DNA of 64,000 nucleotides from Eledone cirrhosa (taxonomy: Eukaryota). The stretch lies in contig OZ024756.1 in NCBI GenBank assembly GCA_964016885.1, positions 43,214,001-43,278,000 of the forward strand, read 5' to 3'. Below are positions 21,001 through 57,885 of the stretch, one piece after another. The stretch's first letter is position 1. Each line of letters starts with the position of its first letter. Both the position numbers and the translations under genes were made by a program. The notes beneath the pieces are model-generated. The model was not told the DNA's origin. It saw only the letters and a program-made list of their open reading frames with translations, and made no database searches.

Positions 21001-24000
21001 ACACACACTAGAGAGAGACATTGGACACACACTAGAGACAGACATTGGACACACTAGAGACAGACATTGGACACACACTAGAGACAGACATTGGGCACAC
21101 ACTAGAGACAGACATTGGACACACACTAGAGACAGACATTGGACACACACACTAGAGCCAGACTTAGGACACACACTAGAGACAGACTTTGGACACACAC
21201 TAGAGACAGACATTGGACACACACACTAGAGACAGACATTGGACACAAACTAGAGACAGACATTGGACACACACTAGAGACAGACATTGGACACACAGTA
21301 GAGACAGACATTGGACACTCACTAGAGACAGAAATTGGACACACACTAGAGACGGACATTGGACACACACGAGAGACAGACATTGGACACTCCCTAGAGA
21401 CAGACATTGGACACTCACTAGATACAGACATTGGACACACACTAGACAGACATTGGACACACACTAGAGAGTGACATTGGACACACACTAGAGACAGACA
21501 TTGGACACACTAGAGACAGACATTGGACACACACTAGAGACAGACATTGGGCACACACTAGAGACAGACATTGGACACACACTAGAGACAGACATTGGAC
21601 ACACATACTAGAGACAGACATTGGACACACACACTAGAGACAGACATTGGACACACACTAGAGACAGACATTGGACACACACACTAGAGACAGACATTGG
21701 ACACACACTAGAGACAGACATTGGACACACACTAGAGACAGACATTGGACACACACCAGAGACAGACATTGGACACACACTAGAGACAGACTTTGGACAC
21801 ACACTAGAGACAGACATTGGACACACACTAGAGACAGACATTGGGCACACACTAGAGACAGACATTGGAACTCACTAGAGACAGACTTTGGACACACACA
21901 CTAGAGAGAGACATTGTACACTCACTAGAGACAGACATTGGACACACACTAGAGACAGACATTGGACACACACTAGATACAGCCATTGGACACACACTAC
22001 AGACAGACATTAGACACCCACTAGAGACAGATATTGGACACACACTAGAGACAGCCATTGGACACACACTACAGACAGACATTAGACACCCACTAGTGAC
22101 AGACATTGGACACACACACTAGAGAGAGACATTGGACACACACTAGAGACAGACATTGGACACACACTAGAGACAGACATTGGACACACACTAGAGACAG
22201 ACATTGGACACACACTAGAGACAGACATTGGGCACACACTAGAGACAGACATTGGACACTCACTAGAGACAGACATTGGACACACACACTAGAGAGAGAC
22301 ATTGTACACTCACTAGAGACAGACATTGGACACACACTAGAGACAGACATTGGACACACACTAGAGACAGACATGGGACACACACATTAGAGACAGGCAT
22401 TGCACACACACTAGAGACAGACATTGGACACACACTAGAGACAGACACTGGACACAGACTAGAGACAGACATTGGACACTCACTAGAGACAGACATTGGA
22501 CACACACCAGAGACAGACATTGGACACACACTAGAGACAGACATTGTACACACACTAGAGACAGACATTGGACACACACACTAGAGACAGACATTGTACA
22601 CACACTAGAGACAGACATTGGACACACACTAGAGACAGACATTGGACACACACTAGAGACAGACATTGGACACACACGAGAGACAGACATTGGACACTCC
22701 CTAGAGACAGTCATTGGACACTCACTAGAGACAGACATTGGACACACACTAGAGACAGACATTGGACAAACACACTAGAGACAGACATTGGACACACACT
22801 AGAGACAGACATTGGACACACATACTAGAGACAGACATTGGACACACACACTAGAGACAGACATTGGACACACACTAGAGACAGACATTGGACACACACT
22901 AGAGACAGACATTGGACACACACACTAGAGACAGACATTGGACACACACTAGAGACAGACATTGGACACACACTAGAGTCAGACATTGGACACACACACA
23001 CTAGAGACAGACATTGGACACACACTAGAGACAGACATTGGACACACACACTAGAGTCAGACATTGCACACACACACTAGAGACAGACATTGGACACACA
23101 CTTGAGACAGACATTGGACACACACTAGAGACAGACATTGGACACACACTAGAGACAGACATTGGACACACACTAGAGACAGACATTGGACACACACTAG
23201 AGACAGACATTGGACACACACACTAGAGTCAGAGATTGGACACACACACTAGAGACAGACATTGGACACACACTAGAGACAGACATTGGACACACACACT
23301 AGAGTCAGACATTGCACACACACACTAGAGACAGACATTGGACACTCACTAGAGACAGACATTGGACACACACACTAGAGACAGACATTGGACACACTAG
23401 AGACAGACATTGGACACACAGTAGAGACAGACATTGGACACACACTAGAGACAGACATTGGACACACACGAGAGACAGACATATGACACTCCCTAGAGAC
23501 AGACATTGAACACACACACTAGAGACAGACATTGGACACACACTAGACAGATATTGGACACACACTAGAGACAGACATTGGACACACACTAGAGACAGAC
23601 ATTGGACACACACACTAGAGATAGACATTGGACACACACTAGAGACAGACATTGGTCACACACTAGAGACAGACTTTGGACACGCACTAGAGACAGACAT
23701 TGGACACACACTAGAGACAGACATTGGACACACACACTAGAGATAGACATTGGACACACACTAGAGACAGACATTGGACACACACTAGAGACAGACATTG
23801 GACACACACTAGAGACAGACATTGGACACACACACTAGAGACAGACTTTGGACACACACTAGAGACAGACATTGGACACACACGAGAGACAGACATTGGA
23901 CACTCCCTAGAGACAGTCATTGGACACTCACTAGAGACAGACATTGGACACACACTAGAGACAGACATTGGACACACACACTAGAGACAGACATTGGACA

Positions 24001-26823
24001 AACACACTAGAGACAGACATTGGACACACACTAGAGACAGACATTGGACACACACTAGAGACAGACATTGGACACACACTAGAGACAGACATTGGACACA
24101 CACACTAGAGACAGACATTGGACACACACTAGAGACAGACGTTGGACACACACTAGAGACAGCCATTGGACACACACACTAGAGACAGACTTTGGACACA
24201 CACTAGAGACAGACATTGGACACACACACTAGAGACAGACATTGGACACACACTAGAGACAGACATTGGACACACACTAGAGACAGACATTGGACATACA
24301 GTAGAGACAGACATTGGACACTCACTAGAGACAGACATTGGACACACACTAGAGACAGACATTGGACACACACGAGAGACAGACATTGGACACTCCCTAG
24401 AGACAGACATTGGACACTCACTAGAGACAGACATTGGACACACACTAGACACACATTGGACACACACTAGAGAGAGACATTGGACACACACTAGAGACAG
24501 ACATTGGACACACTAGAGACAGACATTGGACACACACTAGAGACAGACATTGGGCACACACTAGAGACAGACATTGGACACACACTAGAGACAGACATTG
24601 GACACACACACTAGAGCCAGACTTAGGACACACACTAGAGACAGACTTTGGACACACACTAGAGACAGACATTGGACACACACACTAGAGACAGACATTG
24701 GACACAAACTAGAGACAGACATTGGACACACACTAGAGACAGACATTGGACACACAGTAGAGACAGACATTGGACACTCACTAGAGACAGACATTGGACA
24801 CACACTAGAGACAGACATTGGACACACACGAGAGACAGACATTGGACACTCCCTAGAGACAGACATTGGACACTCACTAGATACAGACATTGGACACACA
24901 CTAGACAGACATTGGACACACACTAGAGAGTGACATTGGACACACACTAGAGACAGACATTGGACACACACTAGAGACAGACATTGGACAAACACACTAG
25001 AGACAGACATTGGACACACACTAGAGACAGACATTGGACACACATACTAGAGACAGACATTGGACACACACTAGAGACAGACATTGGACACACACACTAG
25101 AGACAGACATTGGACACACACTAGAGACAGACATTGGACACACACTAGAGACAGACATTGGACATACAGTAGAGACAGACATTGGACACTCACTAGAGAC
25201 AGACATTGGACACACACTAGAGACAGACATTGGACACACACGAGAGACAGACATTGGACACTCCCTAGAGACAGACATTGGACACTCACTAGAGACAGAC
25301 ATTGGACACACACTAGACACACATTGGACACACACTAGAGAGAGACATTGGACACACACTAGAGACAGACATTGGACACACTAGAGACAGACATTGGACA
25401 CACACTAGAGACAGACATTGGGCACACACTAGAGACAGACATTGGACACACACTAGAGACAGACATTGGACACACACACTAGAGCCAGACTTAGGACACA
25501 CACTAGAGACAGACTTTGGACACACACTAGAGACAGACATTGGACACACACACTAGAGACAGACATTGGACACAAACTAGAGACAGACATTGGACACACA
25601 CTAGAGACAGACATTGGACACACAGTAGAGACAGACATTGGACACTCACTAGAGACAGACATTGGACACACACTAGAGACAGACATTGGACACACACGAG
25701 AGACAGACATTGGACACTCCCTAGAGACAGACATTGGACACTCACTAGATACAGACATTGGACACACACTAGACAGACATTGGACACACACTAGAGAGTG
25801 ACATTGGACACACACTAGAGACAGACATTGGACACACTAGAGACAGACATTGGACACACACTAGAGACAGACATTGGGCACACACTAGAGACAGACATTG
25901 GACACACACTAGAGACAGACATTGGACACACATACTAGAGACAGACATTGGACACACACACTAGAGACAGACATTGGACACACACTAGAGACAGACATTG
26001 GACACACACACTAGAGACAGACATTGGACACACACTAGAGACAGACATTGGACACACACTAGAGTCAGACATTGGACACACACACTAGAGACAGACATTG
26101 GACACACACTAGAGACAGACATTGGACACACACACTAGAGTCAGACATTGCACACACACACTAGAGACAGACATTGGACACACACTTGAGACAGACATTG
26201 GACACACACTAGAGACAGACATTGGACACACACTAGAGACAGACATTGGACACACACTAGAGACAGACATTGGACACACACTAGAGACAGACATTGGACA
26301 CACACTAGGGACAGACATTGGACAGACACACTAGAGACAGACGTTGGACACACACTAGACAGACATTGGACACACACTAGAGACAGACATTGGACAGACA
26401 CACTAGAGACAGACGTTGGACACACACTAGACAGACATTGGACACACACTAGAGACAGACATTGGACACACACGAGAGACAGACATTGGACACAGACTAG
26501 AGACAGACATTGGACACACACACTAGAGATAGACATTGGACACACACTAGAGACAGACATTGGACACACACACTAGACAGACATTGGACACACACGAGAG
26601 ACAGACATTGGACAGACACACTAGAGACAGACATTGGACACACACACTAGACAGACATTGGACACACACTAGAGACAGACATTGGACACACACGAGAGAC
26701 AAACATTGGACACATACTAGAGACAGACATTGGACACACACACTAGAGATAGACATTGGACACACACACTAGACAGATATTGGACACACACGAGAGACAG
26801 ACATTGGACACACACACTAGAGA
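1..26823. repeat. 24-bp satellite array 1 (consensus CTAGAGACAGACATTGGACACACA; 22/26-bp variants from (CA)n slippage); continues beyond the left edge
   Basis: Head-to-tail monomers, continuous apart from the N gap. Higher-order duplications show as identical ORF translations offset by 1910 (149 vs 2059), 3865 (10001 vs 13866), 3719 (13866 vs 17585), 3459 (18804 vs 22263) and 868 bp (24203 vs 25071). Confidence 0.99.
18445..18644. other. Assembly gap (200 N) inside array 1
   Basis: Exactly 200 N, probably a placeholder length, so the true array size is unknown. Confidence 0.99.
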
Positions 26824-27690: not shown

Positions 27691-27771
27691 TAACATTAAA
27701 AACAATAAGTATTTCTAACTGAAATGAAACAACAAAAGTGATGACTAATGAGAAAATGGAATAAAACTTAC

Positions 27772-28098
27772 TTTTTACAGACTTTGGTGGGGATTTACCC
27801 ATACGTGTGGCACATTGAAAATTTGTTGCATCTTCGCAATTAGGGTTATTTTTCCAACACTGATACTCTCCATTCCATCGCTTATTTGCTGGTATTTTAC
27901 AGTCAAAACCAGGTGTAACTAGTCCTCTCTGAAATACTTTTGTATCTTTGTCGTAATTCAATAATAAAACCTGAGTTCCATTTCGTAGGAGTTTCAACAC
28001 ATTTAGCCTAGTTAAGTCACCATTTACCTTACATGTTATATTTATTCTAGCTGATGATCCAACTTGAAATACGGGTGTTATAGATTTGATATATATAT
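27772..28098 (-). CDS. Gene 2 exon 4: V-like immunoglobulin domain (copy A), 327 bp, phase 1-1
   Basis: Acceptor ctcctcttccatattttatataCAG at 28101-28099 and donor GTAAGT at 27771-27766. Open frame IYIKSITPVFQVGSSARINITCKVNGDLTRLNVLKLLRNG...CEDATNFQCATRMGKSPPKSVK, with a B-strand Cys and an F-strand D-x-x-x-F-x-C. Paralog at 44533-44898. Confidence 0.85.
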
Positions 28099-28419
28099 CT
28101 GTATATAAAATATGGAAGAGGAGAAAATGTTTAGACAAAGATTTATTTAAAAAATAACATATATAATGGCAGGTAGAGAAATCTAAGACGGAGAAGACAT
28201 CAATAATAGAAAAAGGAGAGAAATACAGTTGTGAATGATAGAAGAATAATAATAATAAGAAGAAGAAGAAGAAGAAGCATGGAAACATGAATTAGTATGT
28301 ATTTCAAACATAAACATATCTCACATGGAAACATACAATCATGCATATATACAAACATGTATTGATAGAGGCAGACATATATTTAAAAATATGGAATCTC
28401 TCTCATCTAATATGCCCAA

Positions 28420-28599
28420 TCTCAATTTTTTCCAATTCCAACCCACCCGTCCCCTCAGTCTATCTTATTTCTCATTCTTTCTTCTGATGAAGGACTAGCG
28501 TCCGAAACGTTAAGACCCTCTTCCTGCTATATCAAGCGTTAACCTAATATATCCCTTCCATATACTGTACCAATTGTGTGGTTATTTCTGTTTAACTTT

Positions 28600-28600
<1 letters not shown>
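28420..28600 (+). mobile_element. Penelope-like element terminal-repeat fragment carrying a hammerhead motif
   Basis: Reverse-complement homolog at 47419-47595. Contains CTGATGA-A-GGAC-TAGC-GTCC-GAAAC and ends in a (CATA)/(TA)n microsatellite. Family assignment rests on the known PLE-hammerhead association. Confidence 0.6.
28480..28515 (+). ncRNA. Candidate minimal type I hammerhead ribozyme
   Basis: TCTT-CTGATGA-A-GGAC(TAGC)GTCC-GAAAC-GTT-AAGA: core boxes, perfect 4-bp stem II, stem I TCTT/AAGA, and palindromic AACGTT in place of stem III. Confidence 0.6.
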
Positions 28601-28642
<42 letters not shown>

Positions 28643-28647
<5 letters not shown>

Positions 28648-29313
28648 ATATTTAGAAACACACAGATACATGCGGACACACACATATATACATGAATGCA
28701 TCCGCACCTAACTGTGAGTTAAGGGTGCCAACTTCACCGATGTTGCTCAATGAATGACTGGGACAGACCAATTCAGTTGAACCAGACTGAACCAGTATCA
28801 GAGTTAAAAATACATTATGAAGAGAGAAGAAACATTTAGATATAATTAGTAATAAAATGTATCATACCTAAACTGCTTCTAAATTCAACGAGTACGTAGT
28901 TTCGTGGCATAAACAAAAACAATATATCATAAAGATATAGAGTCCTTGCGAGGTCTGCCGACTTAACAAGAGGATACCTCATTTTACTAGTCTCAAGAAC
29001 GCGTCTACACGACGTGAGAAAGAATCCCAAAAGGCGGAGGGGGAGATAGTCACGCGATATAACGGTCGAGAAACAGAGCTAAGCCTCCTATAACCCCGAA
29101 GAAAATACCACGGAGGCGGAGGGGGTATTTATATCGAAGCCGTAGAAGAGGTGGTGAAGGAGGCGAGAAGTATGAGTAATGGAAGCTTTCCAGCTGTCCC
29201 CACACTTCAAAGATTGCTCGACCAGAGGGAGTTATTAACAATATATTTAGAAACACACAGATACATGTGGACACACACATATATACATGAATGCATCCGC
29301 ACCCAACTGTGAG

Positions 29314-29316
<3 letters not shown>
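28643..29316. repeat. 79-bp direct repeats (28643-28721, 29238-29316) flanking a ~516-bp unique insert, embedded in (TA)n
   Basis: The two copies differ at 2 positions. The whole block is absent from the paralogous intron (57424-57510). Confidence 0.85.
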
Positions 29317-29386
<70 letters not shown>

Positions 29387-29425
29387 CACAGAAATGTAAT
29401 ACATAAAAGAAAATAATTTGCTCAC

Positions 29426-29740
29426 TTTTATATGTAAGGAAGACTACAAAGTCAAGTTTCATATTCAATACTGAACAGGTGATGGTTATATTGGGGTAGT
29501 CTTCAATTGTTACGTTGTAGTAAAACTGTGACTCTAATGAAACATAACATTTGTTAATTTTTGGAACATTCACAGATTTTAGACTGACTTCTGTTTCGTT
29601 ACTTCCATGTGTTACACTCCATTTAAACAGGACATTCTCTTCAGAATTTGGGACAAAATTTAAATGACATCTGAAGGTAGATATCTGGTTAATTTTGTGG
29701 TTCTTAGTGTCAGACGTCAGATCTTTCAGAGCTGATTTCA
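29426..29740 (-). CDS. Gene 2 exon 3: C-type immunoglobulin domain (copy B), 315 bp, phase 1-1
   Basis: Acceptor ttttatcttttCAG at 29743-29741 and donor GTGAG at 29425-29421. Reads KSALKDLTSD...STFRCHLNF...LFKWSV...NKCYVSLES...NITITCSVLNMKLDFVVFLTYK, with Ig C...W...C spacing. Same-length paralog at 57571-57885. Confidence 0.87.
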
Positions 29741-29859
29741 CTGAAAAGATAAAATGTAAATCTTAGTAAAATAAATAATGAAATGAAACCTTGGCTGCTT
29801 TCATTGATGCAAACAACTAAAATATTGAATGTGGAGGTTGCTTCTGATAGGACACTCTG

Positions 29860-31260
29860 GAAAGCATGTGTGAGGACTCTGCCCTAACAATACTCTCATG
29901 TTGAGGAAGAGAAGAATATCACCCAAATATTTTGTGACACAGAAGCAGGGTAAATGCAATGAGGAACAAGATGTATATGACAATAACTACACACCCGCTA
30001 ATGACACCCAATCCAACAAAGGGGTCAGTTCTACAACTCAGCAGTGACATAGTAAGACAATTAAGGATACGAAGACAGACAAATCAAGTGGACTACCGGG
30101 CTTAGTTGTTGAAATGCTGAAAGCACCTGGGATGGTAGGTCACATCATAATGAACTGTATCATAAACCAAGTAATACAAAGTAATGTCATACCCAATGAC
30201 TGGTGTAGCTGGAGCATTGACAACTACTACATAAGCAAAGGAGAGGCTCTAGACAGAGAACAATATAGAGGTAACAAGTTGAGGAACCAGGTCATGAAAC
30301 TTACAGAAAGAGTTATCATTTAGCTGATTAGGGACCAAATTAAACCAAAGGGGATACAGTTCAGATTTATGCCAGGTAAACATACCACTAATGTCCTCTT
30401 CTTTGTGAGGCAAATGCAGGTAAAGTACCTAGCTAAACATAAGCCCCTCTACATGGCATTTGTTGATCTGAAGAAAGTATTTTACAAAGTCTTCCATTCC
30501 ATAATCTGGTGGGCTGTTAGAAAACTCAGCGTAGATGAGAGACTGAGGGTGGTATAAGCCATGTATTCACAATTATTATAGTGAGGAATTTAGTGTGTAA
30601 ATGTGGGTTCTTCAAGGGTCTGTTCATAGACCTCTCCTCGTTTATTATTATCTTGCAGGCTATAACATAATAGTAGTAGACTGGCTGCCCATGGGAAATC
30701 CTATATGCTGATTATCTAACTCTCATTACCTGAAATTATGGCAGAAATAGAGTACAAATTCATGCTCTAGAAGTAAAAGGTCATAAAGTCAACTAGGCAA
30801 AGACTAACTTACTAGTAATTAGAAAGGAAAACAAGGTCCTGATAGCTGTGGGGAGTAGTCTTGCTTAATGTACAGGAGATGAATGAGTAGAAATTCTATC
30901 CTGTGTTCCAAATGATGACTATAGGTATACAAGTGATGTAATGTGATCTCAGACAGCCTAACAAAGATGTAGGTTTTATAAGTGGTTGATAAATAGGAGC
31001 AGTTAACAGTAAGGGCTCAACGGAAAACAAGCTCTATTAGATAGTCAGAGGACTCCATAGAAGTAGTTGATAGCTTCTGTGACCTGCATGTGTTCGATGG
31101 CTGTGCAATAGTAGTGTGCATGCAAGGCAAAGCATCAATAAACTGTGACAAAACTGGGTATATACGGTGCAGTTACAGTGTAGAGAGGAGATTGCAGTGG
31201 TATGGACAGGTAAAGTGAATAGTGGCTGACAGGTGTGAAACATATGCAGGGTGCTCAAAG
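29860..31260 (+). mobile_element. Degenerate RTE-clade LINE reverse transcriptase relic, antisense to the host gene
   Basis: FMPGKHTTNVLFFVRQMQVKYLAKHKPLYMAFVDLKKVF matches the non-LTR RT motif. GCPWEILYADYL (~30683-30720) is a decayed YADD. Contains stops and frameshifts; boundaries approximate. Confidence 0.85.
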
Positions 31261-31361
31261 TTGATGGAAGTTATGGAAGAGGAAATCTTGGGATGAAGTG
31301 ATAAAAGCGAAACTTCCACATTTATAACTCTGAAAGGAAATGAAGCCGGATCAACATCTCT

Positions 31362-34300
31362 GACAGACATTGGACACACACTAGACAGACATTGGACACA
31401 CACTAGAGATAGACATTGGACACACACTAGAGACAGACATTGGTCACACACACTAGAGACAGACATTGGACACACACTAGAGACAGACATTGGTCACACA
31501 CACTAGAGACAGACATTGGACACACACTAGAGACAGACATTGGACACACACTAGAGACAGACATTGGTCACACGCACTAGAGACAGACATTGGACACACA
31601 CTAGAGACAGATATTGGACACACACTAGATACAGACATTGAACAATCACTAGAGACAGACATTGGACACACACACTAGAGACAGACATTGGACACACACT
31701 AGAGACAGACATTGGACACACACTAGATACAGACATTGGACACACACTAGAGACAGACATTGGACACACACTAGAGACAAACATTGGACACACACTAGAG
31801 ACAGACATTGGACACACACACTAGAGACAGACATTGGACACACACTAGAGACAGACATTGGACACACACTAGAGACAGACATTGGACACACACTAGAGAC
31901 AGACATTAGACACACACTAGAGACAGACATTGGACACACACTAGAGATAGACATTGGACACACACTAGAGACAGACATTGGACACACATTATAGACAGAC
32001 ATTGGAGACACACTAGAGACAGACATTGGACACACACTAGAGATAGACATTGGACACACACTAGATACAGACATTGGACACACACTAGAGACAGACATTG
32101 GACACACTAGAGACAGACATTGGACACACACTAGAGACAGACATTGGACACACACAGATACAGACATTGGTCACACACTAGAGACAGACATTAGACACAC
32201 ACTAGAGACAGACATTGGACACTCACTAGAGACAGACATTGGAGACACACTATAGACAGACATTGGATACACACTAGAGACAGACATTTGACACACACTA
32301 GAGACAGACATTAGACACACACTAGAGAAAGACATTAGACACACACTAGAGACAGACATTGGACACACACTAGAGACAGACATTGGACACACACTAGAGA
32401 CATATATTGGACACACACTAGATACAGACATTGGACACACACTAGAGACAGACATTGGACACACTAGAGACAGACATTGGACACACACTAGAGACAGACA
32501 TTGGACACACACAGAGACAGACATTGGTCACACACTAGAGACAGACATTAGACACACACTAGAGACAGGCATTGGACACTCACTAGAGACAGACATTGGA
32601 GACACACTATAGACAGATATTGGATACACACTAGAGACAGATATTGGACACACACTAGAGACAGACATTAGACACACACTAGAGAAAGACATTAGACACA
32701 CACTAGAGACAGACATTGGACACATACACTAGAGAGAGATATTGGACACACACTAGAGACAGACATTGGACACACACTAGAGACAGACATTGGACACACA
32801 CTAGAGACAGACATTGGACACACACTAGAGACAGACATTTGACACACACTAGAGACAGACATTAGACACACACTAGAGAAAGACATTAGACACACACTAG
32901 AGACAGACATTGGACACATACACTAAAGAGAGATATTGGACCCACACTAGAGACAGACATTGGACACACACAAGAGACAGACATTGGACACACACTAGAG
33001 ACAGACATTGGACACACACTAGAGACAGACATTTGACACACACTAGAGACAGATATTGGACACACACTAGAGACAGACATTGGACACACACTAGAGACAG
33101 ACATTGGATACACACTAGAGACAGACATTGGACACACACTAGAGAAAGACATTAGACAAACACTAGAGACAGACATTGGACACACACTAAAGACAGATAT
33201 TGGACACACACTAGAGACAGACGTTGGACACACACTAGAGTGGGACATTAGACACACACACTAGAGACAGACATTGGACACACACTAGAGAGAGACATTA
33301 GACACACACTAGAGAAAAACATTGGACACACACTAGAGACAGACATTGGACACACACACTAGAGACAGACATTGGACACACACTATAGACAGACATTGGA
33401 CACACACTAGAGACAGACATTGGACACACACTAGAGACAGACATTAGACACACACTAGAGACAGACATAGGACACACACTAGAGATAGACATTGGACACA
33501 CACTAGAGACAGACATTGGACACACATTATAGACAGACATTGGAGACACACTAGAGACAGACATTGGACAAACACTAGAGACAGACATTGGACACACACT
33601 AGATACAGACATTGGACACACTCTAGAGACAGACATTGGACACACTAGAGAGAGACATTGGACACACACTAGAGACAGACATTGGACACACACAGATACA
33701 GACATTGGTCACACACTAGAGACAGACATTAGACACACACTAGAGACAGACATTGGACACTCACTAGAGACAGACATTGGAGACACACTATAGACAGACA
33801 TTGGATACACACTAGAGACAGACATTTGACACACACTAGAGACAGACATTAGACACACACTAGAGAAAGACATTAGACACACACTAGAGACAGACATTGG
33901 ACACACACTAGAGACAGACATTGGACACACACTAGAGACAGACATTGGACACACACTAGATACAGACATTGGACACACACTAGAGACAGACATTGGACAC
34001 ACTAGAGACAGACATTGGACACACACTAGAGACAGACATTGGACACACACAGAGACAGACATTGGTCACACACTAGAGACAGACATTAGACACACACTAG
34101 AGACAGGCATTGGACACTCACTAGAGACAGACATTGGAGACACACTATAGACAGATATTGGATACACACTAGAGACAGACATTTGACACACACTAGAGAC
34201 AGACATTAGACACACACTAGAGAAAGACATTAGACACACACTAGAGACAGACATTGGACACATACACTAGAGGAAGATATTGGACACACACTAGAGACAG

Positions 34301-37300
34301 ACATTGGACACACACTAGAGACAGACATTGGACACACACTAGAGACAGACATTTGACACACACTAGAGACAGACATTAGACACACACTAGAGAAAGACAT
34401 TAGACACACACTAGAGACAGACATTGGACACATACACTATAGAGAGATATTGGACCCACACTAGAGACAGACATTGGACACACACAAGAGACAGACATTG
34501 GACACACACTAGAGACAGACATTGGACACACACTAGAGACAGACATTTGACACACACTAGAGACAGATATTGGACACACACTAGAGACAGACATTGGACA
34601 CACACTAGAGACAGACATTGGATACACACTAGAGACAGACATTGGACACACACTAGAGAAAGACATTAGACAAACACTAGAGACAGACATTGGACACACA
34701 CTAAAGACAGATATTGGACACACACTAGAGACAGACATTGGACACACACTAGAGTGGGACATTAGACACACACACTAGAGACAGACATTGGACACACACT
34801 AGAGAAAAACATTGGACACACACTAGAGACAGACATTGGACACACACTATAGACAGACATTGGACATACACTAGAGACAGACATTAAACACACGCACTAG
34901 AGACAGAAAATGGACACACACTAGAGACAGACATTGGACACACACTAGAGAGAGAGATTGGACACTCACTAGAGACAGACATTGGACACAAACACTAGAG
35001 ACAGACATTGGACACACACACTAGAGAGAGACATTGGTCACACACTAGAGACAGACATTGGACACACACACTAGGGAGAGACATTGGACACACACACTAG
35101 AGAGAGACATTGGACACACACATTAGAGACAGACATTGGACACACACTAGAGACAGACATTGGACACACACTAGAGACAGACATTGGACACACACTAGAG
35201 ACAGACAATGGACACACACTAGAGACAGACATTGGACACACACTAGAGACAGACATTAGACACACAGTAAAGACAGACATTGGACACACAGTAGAGACAG
35301 ACATTGGACACACACTAGAGACAGACATTGGACACACACTAGAGACAGACATTGGACACACACTAGAGACAGACATTGGACACACACTAGAGACAGACAT
35401 TGGACACACACTAGAGACAGACATTGGACACACACTAGAGACAGACATTAGACACACAGTAAAGACAGACATTGGACACACAGTAGAGACAGACATTGGA
35501 CACACACTAGAGACAGACATTGGACACACACTAGAAACAGACATTGGACACACACTAAAGACAGACATTGAACACACACACTAGAGAGAGACATTGGAGA
35601 CACACTAGAAACAGACATTGGACACACACACTAGAGACAGACATTGGACACACACTAGAGACAGACATTGGACACACACTAGAGACAGACATTAGACACA
35701 CAGTAGAGACAGACATTGGACACACACTAGAGACAGACATTGGACACACTAGAGACAGACATTGGACACACTAGAGACAGACATTGGACACACACTAGAG
35801 ACAGACATTGGACACACACACTAGAGAGAGACATTGGACACACACTAGAGACAGACATTGGACACACACACTAGAGAGAGACATTGGACACACACTAGAG
35901 ACAGACATTGGACACACACTAGAGACATATATTGGACACACACTAGAGACAGACATTGGACACACACTAGAGACAGACATTGGACAAACACACTAAAGAC
36001 AGACATTGGACACACTAGAGACAGACATTGGCCATACACTAGTGAGAGACATTGGACACACACTAGAGACAGACATTAGACACACACTAGAGACAGACTT
36101 TGGACACAATAAAGTCAGACATTGGACACACATACCAGACAGACATTGGACACACACTAGAGACAGACATTGGACACACATTAGAGACAGACATTGGACA
36201 CACTAGAGACAGATATTGGACACACTAGAGACAGACATTGGACACACACTAGAGAGGGACATTAGACACACACACTAGAGACAGACGTTTGACACACACT
36301 AGAGACAGACATTGGACACACACTAGAGACAGACTTTGGACACACACTAGAGACAGACATTGGAAAGACACTAGAGACAGACATTGGACACACACTAGAG
36401 ACAGACGTTGGACAAACACACTAGACAGACATTGGACACACACTAGAGACATACATTGGACACACACTAGAGACAGACATTGGACACACACTAGAGACAG
36501 ACATTGGACACACACTAGAGACAGACATTAGACACCCACTAGAGACAGACATTGGACACACACTAGAGACAGAGATTGGATACACACTAAAGACAGACAT
36601 TTGACACACACTAGAGACAGACATTGGACACACACTAGAGACAGACATTGGACACACACTAGAGACAGACATTGGACACACACGAGAGACAGACATTGGA
36701 CACACACACTAGAGACAGACATTGGGCACACACTAGAGAGAGACATTGGACACACACTCGAGACAGACATTGGACACACACACTAGAGACAGACATTGGA
36801 CACACACACTAGAGATAGACATTGGACACACACTACAGACAGACATTGCACACACACACTAGATACAGACATTGGACACACACTAGAGACAGATATTGGA
36901 CACACACTAGAGAGAGACATTGGACACACACTAGAGACAGACATTGGACACACACACTAGAGACAGACATTGGACACACACACTAGAGACAGACATTGGA
37001 CACACACACTAGAGAGAGACATTGGACACTCACTAGAGACAGACATTGGACACACACACTAGAGACAGGCATTGGACACACACTAGAGACACACATTGGA
37101 CACACACTAGAGACAGACATTGGACACACAGAGTAGAGACAGACATTGGACACACACACTAGAGAGAGACATTGGACACTCACTAGAGACAGACATTGGA
37201 CACACACACTAGAGACAGACATTGGACACACACACTAGAGATAGACATTGGACACACACTAGAGACTGACATTGGACACACACTAGAGACAGACATTGAA

Positions 37301-40300
37301 CACACACTAGAGACAGAAATTGGACACACACTAGAGACAGACATTGGACACACACGAGAGACAGACATTGGACACACACGAGAGACAGACATTGGACACT
37401 CCCTAGAGACAGACATTGGACACACACTAGAGACAGACATTAGACACACAGTAGAGACAGACATTAGACACACACTAGAGACAGACATTGGACACACACC
37501 AGAGACAGACATTGGACACACACTAGAGACAGACATTGGACACACACTAGAGACAGACATTGGGCACACACTAGAGACAGACATTGGACACACACACTAG
37601 AGAGAGACATTGGACACACACTAGAGACAGACATTAGACACACACTAGAGACAGACATTGGACACACACAGAGACAGAAAATGGACACACACTAGAGACA
37701 GACATTGGACACACACTAGAGACAGACATTGGACACACACTAGAGACAGACATTGGACACACACTAGAGACAGACATTGGACACACACTAGAGACAGACA
37801 TTAGACACACAGTAAAGACAGACATTGGACACACAGTAGAGACAGACATTGGACACACACTAGAGACAGACATTGGACACACACTAGAAACAGACATTGG
37901 ACACACACTAAAGACAGACATTGAACACACACACTAGAGAGAGACATTGGAGACACACTAGAGACAGACATTGGACACACACACTAGAGACAGACATTGG
38001 ACACACACTAGAGACAGACATTGGACACACACTAGAGACAGACATTAGACACACAGTAGAGACAGACATTGGACACACACTAGAGACAGACATTGGACAC
38101 ACTAGAGACAGACATTGGACACACTAGAGACAGACATTGGACACACACTAGAGACAGACATTGGACACACACACTAGAGAGAGACATTGGACACACACTA
38201 GAGACAGACATTGGACACACACACTAGAGACAGACATTGGACACACACTAGAGACAGTCATTGGACACACACTAGAGACAGACATTGGACACACACTAGA
38301 GACAGACATTGGACACACACACTAGAGACAGACATTGGCCACACACTAGAGACAGACATTGGACACACACTAGAGGCAGACATTGGACATACACTAGAGA
38401 CAGACATTAAACACACACACTAGAGACAGAAAATGGACACACACTAGAGACAGACATTGGACACACACTAGAGAGAGACATTGGACACTCACTAGAGACA
38501 GACATTGGACACAAACAATAGAGACAGACATTGGACACACACACTAGAGAGAGACATTGGACACACACACTAGAGAGAGACATTGGACACACACACTAGA
38601 GAGAGACATTGGACACACACACTAGAGACAGACATTGGACACACACACTAGAGATAGACATTGGACACACACTAGAGACTGACATTGGACACACACTAGA
38701 GACAGACATTGAACACACACTAGAGACAGAAATTGGACACACACTAGAGACAGACATTGGACACACACTAGAGACAGACATTGGACACACACACTAGAGA
38801 CAGACATTGGACACACACACTAGAGACAGACATTGGACACACACACTAGAGAGAGACATTGGACACTCACTAGAGACAGACATTGGACACACACACTAGA
38901 GACAGGCATTGGACACACACTAGAGACACACATTGGACACACACTAGAGACAGACATTGGACACACAGAGTAGAGACAGACATTGGACACACACACTAGA
39001 GAGAGACATTGGACACTCACTAGAGACAGACATTGGACACACACACTAGAGACAGACATTGGACACACACACTAGAGATAGACATTGGACACACACTAGA
39101 GACTGACATTGGACACACACTAGAGACAGACATTGAACACACACTAGAGACAGAAATTGGACACACACTAGAGACAGACATTGGACACACACGAGAGACA
39201 GACATTGGACACACACGAGAGACAGACATTGGACACTCCCTAGAGACAGACATTGGACACACACTAGAGACAGACATTAGACACACAGTAGAGACAGACA
39301 TTAGACACACACTAGAGACAGACATTGGACACACACCAGAGACAGACATTGGACACACACTAGAGACAGACATTGGACACACACTAGAGACAGACATTGG
39401 GCACACACTAGAGACAGACATTGGACACACACACTAGAGAGAGACATTGGACACACACTAGAGACAGACATTAGACACACACTAGAGACAGACATTGGAC
39501 ACACACAGAGACAGAAAATGGACACACACTAGAGACAGACATTGGACACACACTAGAGACAGACATTGGACACACACTAGAGACAGACATTGGACACACA
39601 CTAGAGACAGACATTGGACACACACTAGAGACAGACATTAGACACACAGTAAAGACAGACATTGGACACACAGTAGAGACAGACATTGGACACACACTAG
39701 AGACAGACATTGGACACACACTAGAAACAGACATTGGACACACACTAAAGACAGACATTGAACACACACACTAGAGAGAGACATTGGAGACACACTAGAG
39801 ACAGACATTGGACACACACACTAGAGACAGACATTGGACACACACTAGAGACAGACATTGGACACACACTAGAGACAGACATTAGACACACAGTAGAGAC
39901 AGACATTGGACACACACTAGAGACAGACATTGGACACACTAGAGACAGACATTGGACACACTAGAGACAGACATTGGACACACACTAGAGACAGACATTG
40001 GACACACACACTAGAGAGAGACATTGGACACACACTAGAGACAGACATTGGACACACACACTAGAGACAGACATTGGACACACACTAGAGACAGTCATTG
40101 GACACACACTAGAGACAGACATTGGACACACACTAGAGACAGACATTGGACACACACACTAGAGACAGACATTGGCCACACACTAGAGACAGACATTGGA
40201 CACACACTAGAGGCAGACATTGGACATACACTAGAGACAGACATTAAACACACACACTAGAGACAGAAAATGGACACACACTAGAGACAGACATTGGACA

Positions 40301-43300
40301 CACACTAGAGAGAGACATTGGACACTCACTAGAGACAGACATTGGACACAAACAATAGAGACAGACATTGGACACACACACTAGAGAGAGACATTGGACA
40401 CACACACTAGAGAGAGACATTGGACACACACACTAGAGAGAGACATTGGACACACACACTAGAGACAGACATTGGACACACACTAGAGACAGACATTGGA
40501 CACACACTAAAGACAGACATTGAACACACACACTAGAGAGAGACATTGGAGACACACTAGAGACAGACATTGGACACACACACTAGAGACAGACATTGGA
40601 CACACACTAGAGACAGACATTGGACACACACTAGAGACAGACATTAGACACACAGTAGAGACAGACATTGGACACACACTAGAGACAGACATTGGACACA
40701 CTAGAGACAGACATTGGACACACTAGAGACAGACATTGGACACACACTAGAGACAGACATTGGACACACACACTAGAGAGAGACATTGGACACACACTAG
40801 AGACAGACATTGGACACACACACTAGAGACAGACATTGGACACACACTAGAGACAGACATTGGACACACACTAGAGACAGACATTGGACACACACTAGAG
40901 ACAGACATTGGACACACACACTAGAGACAGACATTGGGCACACACTAGAGACAGACATTGGACACACACTAGAGGCAGACATTGGACATACACTAGAGAC
41001 AGACATTAAACACACACACTAGAGACAGAAAATGGACACACACTAGAGACAGACATTGGACACACACTAGAGAGAGACATTGGACACTCACTAGAGACAG
41101 ACATTGGACACAAACAATAGAGACAGACATTGGACACACACACTAGAGAGAGACATTGGACACACACTAGAGACAGACATTGGACACACACACTAGAGAG
41201 AGACATTGGACACACACACTAGAGAGAGACATTGGACACACACACTAGAGACAGACATTGGACACACACTAGAGACAGACATTGGACACACACTAGAGAC
41301 AGACAATGGACACACACTAGAGACAGACATTGGACACACACTAGAGACAGACATTGGACAAACACTAGAGACAGACATTAAACACACAGTAGAGACAGAC
41401 ATTGGACACACACACTAGAGAGAGACATTGGACACACACTAGAGACAGACATTCCACACACACACTAGAGAGATACATTGGACACACACTAGTGACAGAC
41501 ATTTGACACACACACTAGAGACAGACATTGGAGACATACTAGACAGACATTGGACACACACTATACACAGACATTGGACACACACTAGAGAGGGACATTA
41601 GACACACACACTAGAGACAGACTTTTGACACACACTAGAGACAGACATTGGACACACACACTAGAGACAGACATTGGGCACACACTAGAGACAGACATTG
41701 GACACACACTAGAGACAGACATTGGACAGACACTAGAGACAGACATTGGACACACACTAGAGACAGACATTGGACACACACACTAGACAGACATTGGACA
41801 CACACTAGAGACAGATATTGGACACACACTAGAGACAGACATTGGACACACACTAGAGACAGACATTGAACACACACTAGAGACAGACATTAGACACACA
41901 CACTAGACAGACATTGGGCACACACTAGAGACAGATATTGGACACACACTAGAGACAGACATTGGACACACACTAGAGACAGACATTGGACAGACACTAG
42001 AGACAGACATTGGACACACACTAGAGACAGACATTGGACACATACACTAGACAGACATTGGACACACACTAGAGACAGATATTGGACACACACTAGAGAC
42101 AGACATTGGACAGACACTAGAGACAGACATTGGACACACACTAGAGACAGACATTGGACACACACACTAGAGACATATATTGGACACACACTAGAGGCAG
42201 ACATTGGGCACACACTAGAGACAGACATTGGGCACACACTAGAGACAGACATTGGACAAACACACTAGAGACAGACATTGGACACACTAGAGACAGACAT
42301 TGGACATACACTAGTGAGAGACATTGGACACACACTAGAGACAGACATTAGAGACAGACATTGGACACTCACTCGAGACAGACATTGGACACACACACTA
42401 GAGACAGACATTAGACACACACACTAGAGAGAGACATTGGACACACACTAGAGACAGACATTGCACACACACACTAGATACAGACATTGGACACACACTA
42501 GAGACAGATATTGGACACACACTAGAGAGAGACATTGGACACACACTAGAGACAGACATTGGACACACACACTAGAGACAGACATTGGACACACACACCA
42601 GAGAGAGACATTGGACACTCACTAGAGACAGACATTGGACACACACACTAGAGACAGACATTGGACACACACACTAGAGACAGACATTGGACACACACAC
42701 TAGAGAGACATTGGACACTCACTAGAGACAGACATTGGACACACACACTAGAGACAGACCTTGGACACACACTAGAGACAGACATTGGAAACACACACTA
42801 GAGAGAGACATTGGACACTCATTAGAGACAGACATTGGACACACACACTAGAGACAGACATTGGACACACACTAGAGACAGACATTGGACACACACACTA
42901 GAGACAGACATTGGACACACACTAGAGACAGACATTGGACACACACTAGATACAGACATTGGACACACACTAGAGACAGACATTGGACACACACTAGAGA
43001 CAGACATTGGACACACACACTAGAGACAGACATTGGAAACACACACTAGAGAGAGACATTGGACACTCATTAGAGACAGACATTGGACACACACACTAGA
43101 GACAGACATTGGACACACACTAGAGACAGACATTGGACACACACTAGATACAGACATTGGACACACACTAGAGACAGACATTGAACACACACTAGAGACA
43201 GACATTGGACACACACTAGAGACAGACATTGGACACACACACTAGAGAGAGACATTGGACACTCACTAGAGACAGACATTGGACACACATTAGAGACAGA

Positions 43301-43584
43301 CATTAGACACACACTAGAGACAGACATTGGATGCGTACTAGAGACAGACATTGGGCACACACTAGAAACAGACATTGGACACACACTAGAGACAGACATT
43401 GGACACACACGAGAGACAGACATTGGACACTCACTAGAGACAGACATTGGAGACACACACTAGAGACAGTCATTGGACACACACTAGAAACAGACATTGG
43501 ACACACACTAGAGACAGACATTGGACACACTAGAGACAAACATTGGACACACTAGAGACAGACATTGGACACACACACTAGAGA
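31362..43584. repeat. 24-bp satellite array 2 (~12.2 kb, complete), inside the V-to-C intron of gene 2
   Basis: Same monomer and orientation as array 1. Internal duplications offset by 1538 (32171 vs 33709), 1837 (36983 vs 38820) and 762 bp (39745 vs 40507). Confidence 0.99.
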
Positions 43585-44445
43585 GAAAGATAACACTGAC
43601 ACAAAGACTCACACACACACTATAGAGAAACATTGCATTACACACACACTAGAGAGAGATATTGGACACACACACTAGAGAGAGACGTTACATACACACA
43701 CTATAGAGAAACATTACACTACACACACACTAGAGAGAGATATTGGACACACACACACACACTATAGTGAAACATTACATTACACATACATACTATAGAG
43801 GAACATTACGCACATAAACACGCGAAACTTTACATTTTATATACACACTATAGTGAAATGATACACACACACTTTATAGAGAAAGATACACACAAAGACA
43901 GAGGAAACATTACATTACGCAGACACATACACACATATATACATACATACACACATATACAAACAGTCATACATACACATACAGACAGATATACATACAT
44001 ACACACACATACAAAAAGTCATACATACACATACACATATATACATACATACACACATATACAAACAGTCATACATACACATACACACAGATATAATCAT
44101 ACATACACACACATAAAAACATCATACATACACATACACACACATACAGTCATACATACACATACACACATATATACATACATACACATACAAACAGTCA
44201 TACACACACATACACACAGATATACATACATACACATACAAACAGTCATACATACACATACACACAGAAATACATACATACACATACAAACAGTCATACA
44301 TACACATACAAACAGTTATACATATATACACACACATACAAACAGTCATACATACACATACACACATATATACATACATACACACACATGCAAACAGTCG
44401 CACATACACACATACATACATGTGCACACACATATATATATATAA
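43585..44445. repeat. Degenerate satellite edge plus CA/CATA minisatellite (paralog of 26824-27690)
   Basis: Colinear and near-identical to 26824-27690. Confidence 0.9.
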
Positions 44446-44532
44446 TATAGATAACATTAAAAACAATAAGTATTTCTAACTGAAATGAAACAACAAAAGT
44501 GATGACTAATGAGAAAATGGAATAAAACTTAC

Positions 44533-44898
44533 TTTTTACAGACTTTGGTGGGGATATTTCGTTATTTGTGGCACATTGAAAATTTGTTGCATCTTCGCAA
44601 TTAGGGTTATTTTTCCAGCACTGATACTCTCCATTCCATCCCTTATTTGCTGGTATTTTACAGTCAAAACCAGGTGTAACTACTCCTCTCTGAAATCCAC
44701 CTGTAGCTTTGTTGTAATTCAATTGTAAAACCTGAGTTCCATTTCGTAGGAGTCTCAAGACAGTTACCACATTTAAGTCACCAGTTAGCTTACATGTTAT
44801 ATTTATTCTAGCTGATGATCCAACTTCAAATTCAGGTGTTATATTTATTCTAGCTGATGATCCATCTTCAAATTCAGGTGTTATATTTAGTGATACCC
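44533..44898 (-). CDS. Gene 2 exon 2: V-like immunoglobulin domain (copy A'), 366 bp, phase 1-1, with an in-frame 42-bp tandem duplication
   Basis: Acceptor cttccatattttatataTAG at 44901-44899 and donor GTAAGT at 44532-44527. Reads GVSLNITPEFEDGSSARINITPEFEVGSSARINITCKLTGDL...CEDATNFQCATNNEISPPKSVK. Confidence 0.85.
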
Positions 44899-47044: not shown

Positions 47045-47165
47045 CGCCTGAAGTGGAACGAGCCATCATCATCATCACCATAACTATTACCATAGTCCTC
47101 AACAGGTTGGGCAGAAATAAGCGCCGACTGCCCCCATCAACAGTTGTAATATAACAGCAAGACAT
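47045..47165 (-). CDS. Gene 2 exon 1: signal-peptide exon (MSCCYITTVDGGSRRLFLPNLLRTMVIVMVMMMMARSTSG); alternative start at ATG 47093
   Basis: ATG at 47165 is in frame with hydrophobic MVIVMVMMMMA and a small-residue c-region STSG. Phase-1 donor GTAAGT at 47044-47039 splices in frame (G+GG) to the V exon at 44898. Confidence 0.75.
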
Positions 47166-48530: not shown

Positions 48531-48825
48531 GGAACAAGTTGCAGGTAATATAGTAACAGGTTATTTTTCCTCAACTGATTTGTCTTGTAAATTAGTAGCA
48601 GCACAAATACACACTTACGTATGTAGCGTTCCAAATGTTATGATCAAAGAACGCCGTCTTATCATCTAACTCTCTGTAACAGAGTTTAATTATTTTTTCT
48701 TCTTAAAATCCCAATAAAATTTTCTCTCTCCTTATTGACATGTATTTCTTTTTCTCCCCCTGTCTAGACACGTCTTTCTTTCTCTCCCACTCACTTCCCT
48801 GGTCTTTAGTTCTCTCTATCGATTT

Positions 48826-54350: not shown

Positions 54351-54387
54351 CTTTTTGTTCCTGTATGGGTTTTATCTTAATTGATGC

Positions 54388-54393
54388 TCAACC
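54388..54393 (-). CDS. Gene 1 predicted terminal coding exon (Gly-stop, then 3' UTR)
   Basis: Strong acceptor ctgttttgcttattttccaaCAG at 54396-54394, then GGT TGA in phase 0 matching the upstream micro-exon. Confidence 0.45.
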   Translation of the reverse strand, partial: G

Positions 54394-56188: not shown

Positions 56189-56303
56189 CTGTTGACTCCT
56201 TTAACTGGTAAATAACAAAGAACTAAATAAAAAAAGACAAGTACGTTAAATGCTATAACTCCAAGGTTGATACCAGCAATAGTTCCACGACTTGATTCAC
56301 CAG
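56189..56303 (-). CDS. Gene 1 transmembrane exon (T-GESSRGTIAGINLGVIAFNVLVFFYLVLCYLPVKGVNR), phase 1-2
   Basis: Acceptor ctcctgttttctatcttgaTAG at 56306-56304 and donor AG|GTTAGT at 56188-56183. About 23 hydrophobic residues, in frame with the C exon at 57571. Confidence 0.78.
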
Positions 56304-57570: not shown

Positions 57571-57885
57571 TTTTATCTTTAATGTAGACTACAAAGTCAA
57601 GTTTCATTTTCAATACTGAACAGGTGATGGCTATATCGGGGTAGTCTGCAATTGTTACGTTGTAGTCAAACTGTGACTCTAATGAAACATAACAGTTGTT
57701 AGTTTTTGGAACATTCACAGTTTCTCGACTGACTTCTGTTTCGTTACTTCCATGTGTTACACTCCATTTAAACAGGACAATCTCTTCAGAATTTGGGACA
57801 AAATTTAAATGACATCTGAAGGTAGATATCTGGTTAATTTTGTGGTTCTTAGTGTCAGACGTCAGATCTTTCATATAAGATTTAG
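57571..57885 (-). CDS. Gene 1 C-type immunoglobulin domain exon (copy B'), 315 bp, phase 1-1
   Basis: Acceptor ttttatattttCAG at 57888-57886 and donor GTAAGC at 57570-57565. Reads KSYMKDLTSD...FRCHLNF...FKWSV...NNCYVSLES...AITCSVLKMKLDFVVYIKDK. Confidence 0.87.

What the first reader, a model, noticed from the sequence alone, without database searches (positions are those of the whole stretch)
27772..44898. V-exon paralogs are hypervariable in three CDR-like patches, with almost no silent change
By-eye alignment from ITP onward gives about 20 amino-acid replacements against about 3 purely silent codon changes (Pro CCC/CCT, Val GTG/GTC, Cys TGT/TGC). Replacements cluster after the B-strand Cys (VNGDLTRLNVLK vs LTGDLNVVTVLR), in the C'-C'' region (LLNYDKDTKVF vs QLNYNKATGGF) and after the F-strand Cys (RMGK vs NNEI). 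The framework and the adjacent intron (27690-27771 vs 44450-44532) are essentially identical. Exons more diverged than introns, concentrated in BC/C'C''/FG loops, is the expected signature of diversifying selection on a ligand-binding face.
Basis: partly seen in the sequence, partly recalled or inferred. Interest (0 to 1): 0.85.

Follow-up and report, generated by a model that had tools for sequence, protein, structure and literature searches.

The report
Octopus receptors with antibody-like variable loops
Two exons of an unnamed octopus-type cell-surface protein differ mainly in three loops that are predicted to match the spots where antibodies vary, and across ten near-identical copies in the same gene cluster these changes outrun neutral drift, so the family is likely a recognition molecule pushed to keep changing, probably by microbes or parasites.

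Summary
In detail: exactly 20 replacements and 3 silent codons, 16 of 20 in three patches, adjacent intron identical. The pair alone is not significant (dN/dS 1.6, p 0.26). The exons lie in a 1.2 Mb cluster of 13 leader-(V-C)n-TM units and are predicted domains 1 and 3 of one gene, not two genes. Relatives are uncharacterised octopod proteins. A model and a conserved motif place the patches at the BC, C'C'' and FG loops. Across ten close V exons, 87 of 101 distinct changes alter amino acids and 53% of them fall in tip loops; neutral simulations with recombination rarely reach either. C exons show the same excess, so selection is not V-only. Ligand, tissue and expression are unknown. It works like CEACAM or Alr but is a member of neither. 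This scan noted neighbouring genes of this cluster, and a similar pattern elsewhere in this genome, before.

The parts
47045..47165 (-). Leader exon (predicted signal peptide, 40 aa, phase-1 donor) of the gene that holds both V exons (G6)
   Evidence: same leader type at the N-terminus of annotated octopod homologs
48618..48730 (-). Putative 5'UTR exon ending at a GTAAGT donor near 48618; start not defined
   Evidence: repeated upstream of 11 leaders; inferred, no RNA
44533..44898 (-). V exon 1 (N-terminal V-like Ig domain of G6), 366 nt, phase 1-1
44795..44889 (-). In-frame 42-nt tandem duplication at the start of V exon 1; also in the first V exon of the upstream gene G5
44753..44788 (-). 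Patch 1 in V1, predicted BC loop (CDR1-equivalent)
44696..44725 (-). Patch 2 in V1, predicted C' strand end and C'C'' loop (CDR2-equivalent)
44555..44566 (-). Patch 3 in V1, predicted FG loop (CDR3-equivalent)
44451..44532 (-). Intron start after V1, identical to 27690-27771; first 75 nt carry no substitution in ten copies
31200..43600 (.). 24-bp satellite array inside the V1-C1 intron (ends approximate)
29426..29740 (-). C exon 1 (C2-type Ig-like domain of G6), 315 nt, phase 1-1
28099..29425 (-). 1327-nt C-to-V intron without leader or TM exon; related junction in two other genes of the cluster
27772..28098 (-). V exon 2 (third Ig domain of G6), 327 nt, phase 1-1
27992..28027 (-). Patch 1 in V2, predicted BC loop
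27935..27964 (-). Patch 2 in V2, predicted C'/C'C'' region
27794..27805 (-). Patch 3 in V2, predicted FG loop
27690..27771 (-). Intron start after V2
1..26800 (.). Start of a 495-kb stretch, 99.5% 24-bp satellite, between V2 and the next C exon; one assembly gap at 18445-18644 (end approximate)
57571..57885 (-). Last C exon of the upstream gene G5
56189..56303 (-). TM exon of G5; 115 nt, reading shifted in its second half relative to canonical copies, still hydrophobic
54377..54393 (-). Start of the putative last exon of G5; stop within a few codons
   Evidence: inferred

Best explanation
The two exons are predicted V-type Ig domains 1 and 3 of one gene in an octopod cluster of leader-(V-C)n-anchor genes, amino-acid changes in the cluster's V and C exons exceed neutral expectation and pile up in the predicted tip loops of V, and the likely driver is an arms race with a microbial or parasite ligand that grips these surface proteins. 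Shown from sequence: exon order, the excess of replacements, mosaic exchange of patches between copies, near-identical leaders and intron edges, and truncated or shifted TM exons in the central genes. Predicted: the V fold and the loop assignment. Inferred: unequal crossing-over fused V-C-TM units into V-C-V-C genes; gene conversion evens out flanks and deals loop variants among copies while selection keeps the differences; the tail-less or short-tailed central copies would act as decoys or adhesion variants beside tailed members, as in CEACAMs. Untested: expression, tissue, ligand.
For: Cluster: 17 V, 17 C, 12 leader and 13 TM copies, all on one contig stretch; no leader or TM between the two V exons or in the 495 kb after V2. 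Homologs with the same leader, five V cysteines, V-C junction and TM: 36 hits; 19 of 20 looked up are named, all uncharacterised octopod proteins. Fold: model pLDDT 85.6; Z 11.7, rmsd 2.2, 97 aligned to a VHH. Selection: ten close V exons have 87 replacement and 14 silent distinct changes (codons 6-108), ten close C exons 78 and 12; binomial p 0.0004-0.045 (V) and 0.0008-0.035 (C) over 12 mutation settings; strictly neutral simulations with recombination reach the V+C share in 1 of 996, 0 of 537, 2 of 617 runs and the V share in 10, 3, 15; segment-tree LRT 13.7 reached in 1 of 48 null runs. Location: 53% of replacements in four distal loops that hold 29% of codons; best of 103 circular shifts; reached in 0, 4, 2 of the same simulations; the patches are also the variable ones in 7 other close and 6 distant exons (p 8e-5, 1e-6). 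No stop among about 190 changes, about 12 expected. Conversion: PHI p 0.0002; nearest relative changes from segment to segment; leaders 93-99% identical where V exons are 68-77%. Analogy: CEACAM N-domains, positive selection plus conversion driven by bacterial adhesins (PMC8860441, passages).
Against: Nothing here identifies the ligand or tissue; sperm-egg, self-recognition or neural roles would leave the same signature. The pair itself is not significant (p 0.26) and the three patches alone give p 0.053 for N over S. The framework also shows a ratio of 1.5 and the C exons 1.8, so the excess is not confined to a V binding face. Loops tolerate change in any case. All copies come from one assembly; 3 of 34 Ig exons are broken and were left out of the counts. 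G6's own TM exon ends in a stop and its V2-C2 link crosses a gap in 495 kb of satellite, so G6 may be decaying or mis-joined. The one tailed homolog examined has tyrosines but no canonical ITIM.
Confidence: 0.55

Rival explanations
1. The family is a self/non-self or cell-identity code: each copy binds its own kind in trans, and selection favours new specificities, as for Hydractinia Alr2.
For: Same signature as Alr2, where one side of the N-terminal V domain is under positive selection and point mutations create new homophilic specificities (PMC8282982, abstract). Many homologs end in GPI-like or short tails, as adhesion molecules do. Many copies with combinatorial patches.
Against: Alr variation is mainly allelic in a colonial animal; here the variation seen is among copies in a solitary animal. 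Alr V domains lack the B/F cysteines and carry an Fn3-like stalk (PMC9546547, passages); neither holds here.
Confidence: 0.2
2. The proteins act in reproduction (sperm-egg, sperm-female tract or spermatophore recognition), and sexual conflict drives the divergence.
For: Reproductive surface proteins commonly show dN/dS above 1 and concerted evolution of repeats (own knowledge; PMC2704960 seen as search listing only). Selection covers both V and C domains.
Against: No expression data point to it. A 13-unit cluster with gain and loss of copies fits pathogen-driven families better (own knowledge).
Confidence: 0.12
3. The pattern is neutral or relaxed evolution of redundant copies: gene conversion wipes clean the introns and framework and leaves old, tolerant loops looking hypervariable.
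For: Conversion is shown. Silent divergence in distant exons (0.2-0.3) far exceeds that of their intron edges (about 0.04-0.05). Central TM exons are shifted or truncated and 3 Ig exons are broken. Single-tree site tests are inflated.
Against: Neutral evolution with conversion gives a replacement share of 0.75-0.78, not 0.86. The excess survives removal of multi-base changes (V 68:9, C 70:8; p 0.001-0.025; observed-data part). No stops or frameshifts in 20 close exons.
Confidence: 0.08
4. The exons are alternative cassettes of one locus (Dscam- or protocadherin-like) that splice to shared constant exons, or the copies are assembly artefacts.
For: Conserved intron edges flank every V exon. Two units lack parts (no V in G8, no C/TM in G10) and one leader is missing at a gap.
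Against: Leaders (12) and TM exons (13) are repeated throughout, so there is no single constant region. Distinct variants are present in read-derived contigs.
Confidence: 0.05

Closest known systems
Uncharacterised octopod V-C proteins (Argonauta hians GAB1601880.1 'LOC115221679' type; Octopus bimaculoides LOC106878948/52/54; O. sinensis LOC118766833; O. vulgaris CAI97377xx)
   Same: Same leader type, five V cysteines, V-C junction and, in the tailed members, nearly the same TM; clustered on one contig per species where contig lengths are given.
   Different: Only 22-37% identical in V. Those records carry no function and no analysis of selection was found. Here several genes are V-C-V-C or longer, with shifted TM exons and satellite-filled introns.
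Mammalian CEACAM family
   Same: Clustered genes with an N-terminal IgV-like domain, IgC-like domains and TM or GPI anchor; positive selection and gene conversion shuffle the V domain; decoy members (PMC8860441, passages).
   Different: No sequence match. CEACAM N-domains lack the B-F disulfide and bind with the GFCC' sheet (recalled); here the disulfide motif is present, variation peaks in tip loops, V-C pairs repeat, and C domains are also selected.
Hydractinia Alr1/Alr2 family
   Same: Invertebrate cluster of single-pass IgSF genes, one domain per exon, N-terminal V-set domain under positive selection (PMC9546547 passages; PMC8282982 abstract).
   Different: [quoted passage not shown] Homophilic binding is shown for Alr2 and untested here.
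Biomphalaria polymorphic transmembrane clusters (GRC, PTC2)
   Same: Molluscan clusters of hyperdiverse single-pass proteins tied to parasite resistance (PMC7494358, passages).
   Different: In PTC2 synonymous divergence exceeds nonsynonymous and the diversity is allelic; the passages seen do not describe Ig domains.
Vertebrate antibody and TCR V domains
   Same: V fold (Z 11.7 to a VHH) with variation at the BC, C'C'' and FG loops.
   Different: Germline copies only; the exon encodes the whole domain and ends in a splice donor; no C-strand Trp; three extra cysteines.

Membership tests
Ig superfamily, V-set-like domain | V-type beta-sandwich with C' and C'' strands | tested here: met
   Predicted model, nine strands, pLDDT 85.6; Z 11.7, rmsd 2.2, 97 aligned to a VHH; feature search points to mollusc proteins and V-set clusters
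Ig superfamily, V-set-like domain | B-strand and F-strand cysteines with D-x-x-x-Y/F-x-C before the F cysteine | tested here: met
   C22 and C95 invariant in 16 exons; homologs read D-x-A-x-Y-x-C at this place
Ig superfamily, V-set-like domain | C-strand tryptophan | tested here: not met
   No Trp in the predicted C strand (residues 33-38) in 16 of 16 exons
Ig superfamily, V-set-like domain | Pfam V-set or ig score above cut-off | tested here: not met
   No V-set hit; PF00047 in 3 of 16 at best E 0.025, and below its cut-off where the score is shown
Uncharacterised octopod V-C family (LOC115221679-like) | Leader, five-Cys V, three-Cys C, TM or GPI-like end | tested here: met
   37% over 89 aa, E 2e-16; 25% over 105 aa, E 9e-12
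Rearranging antigen receptors (Ig/TCR) | V segment ends after the F strand, followed by a recombination signal and J segments | tested here: not met
   Exon includes the predicted G strand and ends in GTAAG; no heptamer in the 85 intron bases aligned (heptamer recalled)
CEACAM | IgV-like N-domain, IgC-like domains, TM or GPI anchor, tandem cluster | tested here: met
   definition from PMC8860441 passages
CEACAM | N-domain without B-F disulfide and with sequence homology to CEACAM1 | tested here: not met
   B and F cysteines present; no CEACAM among PDB sequence hits at E up to 10; the missing disulfide is recalled
CEACAM | Bound by bacterial adhesins | not testable with these tools
   Needs binding assays
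Hydractinia Alr | V domain lacking pin cysteines; I-set plus Fn3-like stalk | tested here: not met
   PMC9546547 passages: cysteines present, TM follows C directly in homologs
Hydractinia Alr | Allele-specific homophilic binding | not testable with these tools
   Needs aggregation assays
Molluscan FREP/VIgL | C-terminal fibrinogen or lectin domain | tested here: not met
   TM exon follows C; no fibrinogen family in 6 full-length homologs, one weak lectin hit at E 0.021 lying inside the C domain
Dscam / clustered-protocadherin cassette loci | Many variable cassettes, one shared constant region | tested here: not met
   12 leaders and 13 TM copies interspersed; splicing itself not seen
Paired activating/inhibitory receptors | A member with ITIM and members with charged TM or no tail | tested here: inconclusive
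   Tail-less or short-tailed forms and polar TM residues are present; no canonical ITIM in the two homolog tails scanned; full tails of this genome's genes not reconstructed

The most novel reading that the evidence does not exclude
Octopods have a germline 'antibody-like' repertoire: a V-domain receptor family whose three CDR-equivalent loops are under positive selection and are dealt out among copies by gene conversion as separate modules, with V-C units stacked by gene fusion so that one molecule carries two or three different specificities; it would be a variable recognition system of cephalopod immunity or self-recognition, and between-individual or somatic variation is not excluded.
Probability: 0.25. 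Interest if true: 0.85.

Novelty: new variant of a known kind. Interest (0 to 1): 0.6.

Why it matters
No variable recognition receptor of cephalopods turned up in the literature searches run here, and a 2025 review of invertebrate IgSF proteins does not mention octopus or cephalopods (PMC11999971, word counts). This family gives a named set of exons, loops and codons to test. Positive selection at all three CDR-equivalent loops of an invertebrate V domain, with loop variants exchanged between copies, would be a convergent route to antibody-like diversity without rearrangement. The locus also shows in one place why 'exons diverge faster than introns' and single-tree PAML results mislead when conversion is active. 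The general kind, a fast-evolving Ig receptor cluster, is well known in vertebrates and cnidarians, and the function is not shown.

Tried and rejected
Pair-only test: not significant. Single-tree site models: large LRTs (32-56) set aside as main evidence because recombining null data pass the nominal cut-off in 13 of 21 runs. My first simulator had a numerical fault: the simulation results are discarded and replaced; their observed-data lines stand. One giant many-domain gene: rejected once leader and TM copies were found. Patch 3 lying after the G strand: considered from the GEYQC motif, rejected. Read-through of the conserved intron as a TM: the frame is open and hydrophobic in the close copies, but not in several distant ones, and AT-rich introns read so by chance; not pursued. 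Word-based protein searches found nothing; the full profile search did. Pfam and PDB sequence searches gave no hit above cut-off. The C-domain model's best fold hits were bacterial Ig-like domains, not informative. No RNA holder listed, which is no evidence on expression. A two-copy complex prediction of one V domain gave no answer. The wide structural search was not run. Codons 1-5 were dropped from V tests, and three broken exons from all counts. Supplements of papers were not read; tables of octopus gene lists could mention these loci.
Full report
1. The observation. Both exons are on the minus strand with canonical splice ends in phase 1-1: V1 at 44898-44533 and V2 at 28098-27772. The next 82 intron bases are identical and the preceding 99 differ at 4. 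Per site the pair gives dN 0.114, dS 0.071, ratio 1.6, p 0.26, so the pair alone does not show selection and silent change is not unusually low. Read-derived contigs of three runs of one sample cover introns and repeats, so they behave as DNA; they contain both versions.

2. What the exons belong to. A genome search found 17 V-like and 16 C-like exons, all within about 1.15 Mb of one contig; a profile scan added one broken C exon. 31 of these 34 are intact with phase 1-1 ends. Repeated leader (12), TM (13) and short terminal exons divide the array into 13 units. Four units carry two or three V-C pairs. In the window the order is: last C, TM and end of gene G5; then leader (47165-47045), V1, C1 (29740-29426), V2 of gene G6. 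No leader or TM copy lies between V1 and V2, and that stretch has no gap. The next C and TM lie 495 kb on, across 99.5% satellite with one gap. Three short C-to-V introns share a related junction, which fits fusion of V-C-TM units by unequal crossing-over (inference). The models rest on DNA only; no RNA holder was listed.

3. Relatives and fold. A profile of 16 V exons found 36 proteins. Of 20 looked up, 19 are named, all uncharacterised or generically named proteins of three Octopus species and Argonauta. They show the same leader, V, C and, in tailed members, nearly the same TM, which supports the exon chain. Many end in a GPI-like hydrophobic stretch. The V model (pLDDT 85.6) aligns end to end with a VHH at Z 11.7, rmsd 2.2, 97 residues. 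Homologs read D-x-A-x-Y-x-C at the fifth cysteine, which makes C95 the F-strand cysteine; a weak match to an antibody light chain gives the same register (E 0.85). The domain lacks the C-strand Trp and has three extra cysteines. The C exon models as a seven-stranded sandwich with C2-set look-alikes (weak recognition score).

4. Selection. Recombination among copies is strong (PHI p 0.0002): V2 matches one copy in the BC segment (1 difference, others 9-11) and differs from it by 12 in the FG segment. Single-tree site models give LRTs of 32-56, but recombining null data pass the nominal cut-off in 13 of 21 runs, with a maximum of 29.6 against 39.9 observed. I therefore counted distinct changes per codon, which does not depend on a tree. 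Ten close V exons: 87 replacement, 14 silent; ten close C exons: 78 and 12. Binomial p is 0.0004-0.045 for V and 0.0008-0.035 for C over 12 mutation settings. With single-base steps only it is 68:9 and 70:8 (observed part). Strictly neutral simulations with recombination and uneven depth reach the V+C share in 1 of 996, 0 of 537 and 2 of 617 runs, and the V share in 10, 3 and 15. With a tree per segment the LRT is 16.3 or 13.7, the latter reached in 1 of 48 null runs; for C it is 18.8. dN exceeds dS in 44 of 45 close and 72 of 75 other V pairs, and 42 of 45 and 60 of 60 C pairs; pairs are not independent. No stop occurs among about 190 changes where about 12 are expected; three broken exons elsewhere in the cluster were left out.

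5. Where the changes are. With loops defined from the model, distal loops (BC, C'C'', DE, FG; 30 codons) carry 1.54 replacements per codon, proximal loops 0.47 and strands 0.59. The distal share, 53%, is the best of 103 circular shifts and is reached in 0, 4 and 2 of the simulations above. The pair's patches are also the variable ones in 7 other close exons and 6 distant exons. Four of five sites with posterior above 0.9 under segment trees (30, 53, 71, 99) are in the four distal loops; the fifth is 11. Alternating positions of strands B, E, F and G, anchored on the cysteines by me and not taken from coordinates, show no change. Against: the N/S ratio inside the three patches alone gives p 0.053, the framework ratio is still 1.5, and C exons are as enriched as V exons.

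6. Gene conversion. The first 75 intron bases after V carry no substitution in ten copies. Leaders are 93-99% identical among genes whose V exons are 68-77% identical. For four distant exons, silent sites in unchanged codons differ from V2 at 0.20-0.30 while intron edges differ at about 0.04-0.05. So flanks are being evened out, and 'exon above intron' is not independent proof of selection. It does not explain the replacement excess.

7. Mechanism. Most likely: copies arise and fuse by unequal crossing-over; conversion homogenises flanks and moves loop variants between copies; selection keeps new tip surfaces. In the central genes the TM exon is shifted or ends in a stop, leaving short or no tails; for G6 the product would end in a hydrophobic stretch. 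That resembles CEACAMs, where positive selection and conversion of the N-domain are driven by bacterial adhesins and decoys exist (PMC8860441, passages). I put a microbial or parasite ligand at 0.55, a self-recognition code as in Alr2 (PMC8282982, abstract) at 0.2, reproduction at 0.12, neutral decay at 0.08, cassette splicing or artefact at 0.05. That selection has acted I put near 0.9.

8. Membership and novelty. It is a member of an unnamed octopod V-C family. It fails defining tests for antigen receptors, CEACAM, Alr (PMC9546547, passages), FREP/VIgL and Dscam-type loci. Snail PTC2 genes differ in having synonymous above nonsynonymous divergence (PMC7494358, passages). Searches for a description found none (five locus ids); PMC11999971, PMC11431876 and PMC11703226 were checked by passages and say nothing on it; PMC5112662 and PMC2704960 were seen as listings only. 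The library lacks most subscription papers. Earlier notes of this scan describe neighbouring genes of the cluster in similar terms; they are not independent support, and my gene map was made before I saw them.

9. Verdict. Real feature, interpretation supported with amendments, function open. New variant of a known kind; interest 0.6.

Noticed in passing
window 1-26800, 31200-43600, 59751-64000 and G000:C17:42746448-43241771: A 24-bp satellite fills introns of the central genes: about 110, 118 and 495 kb between V and C exons, all in one orientation; it is nearly absent from the flanking, older genes of the cluster.
   Followed up: partly
window 56189-56303 and five other TM copies (G000:C17 42.716, 42.731, 42.745, 43.440, 43.640 Mb): A TM-exon subtype differs in the length of a T run, giving three reading outcomes (open, stop after the hydrophobic stretch, earlier stop), with Asn or Lys in the membrane span; could be tail loss or GPI conversion, or homopolymer error.
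   Followed up: partly
G000:C17:43664241-43715000: One V-C-TM unit lies on the opposite strand just beyond an assembly gap, with about 98% identity over 5 kb to the neighbouring gene; inverted duplicate or misplaced haplotype.
   Followed up: partly
window 27690-27771 and 44451-44532: The conserved intron start is an open, hydrophobic continuation of the V frame in close copies and its indels are multiples of three; could allow a membrane-anchored V-only form, or be chance.
   Followed up: no
L017, L028 and G000:C17:42560250-42560556: Three broken Ig exons; two units lack parts (leader-C-TM without V; leader-V only).
   Followed up: partly
V residues C66, C80, C87 and C residue C64: Extra invariant cysteines in V and C across octopods; a D-E disulfide and a V-C interdomain bond are possible.
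   Followed up: no
C exons, residues 3, 35, 53, 55, 57 and 98-103: Variable sites of the C domain alternate along one predicted strand, which suggests a second surface under selection (site list from a single-tree model).
   Followed up: partly
L120:5127-5336: An exon weakly like the ABC-transporter TMD0 domain (E 0.017, below cut-off) marks the probable next gene below the cluster.
   Followed up: partly
window 28650-29310: A high-copy element of about 600 bp, flanked by a direct repeat and TA runs, sits in the C1-V2 intron of G6 and is missing from the related introns of G4 and G5.
   Followed up: no
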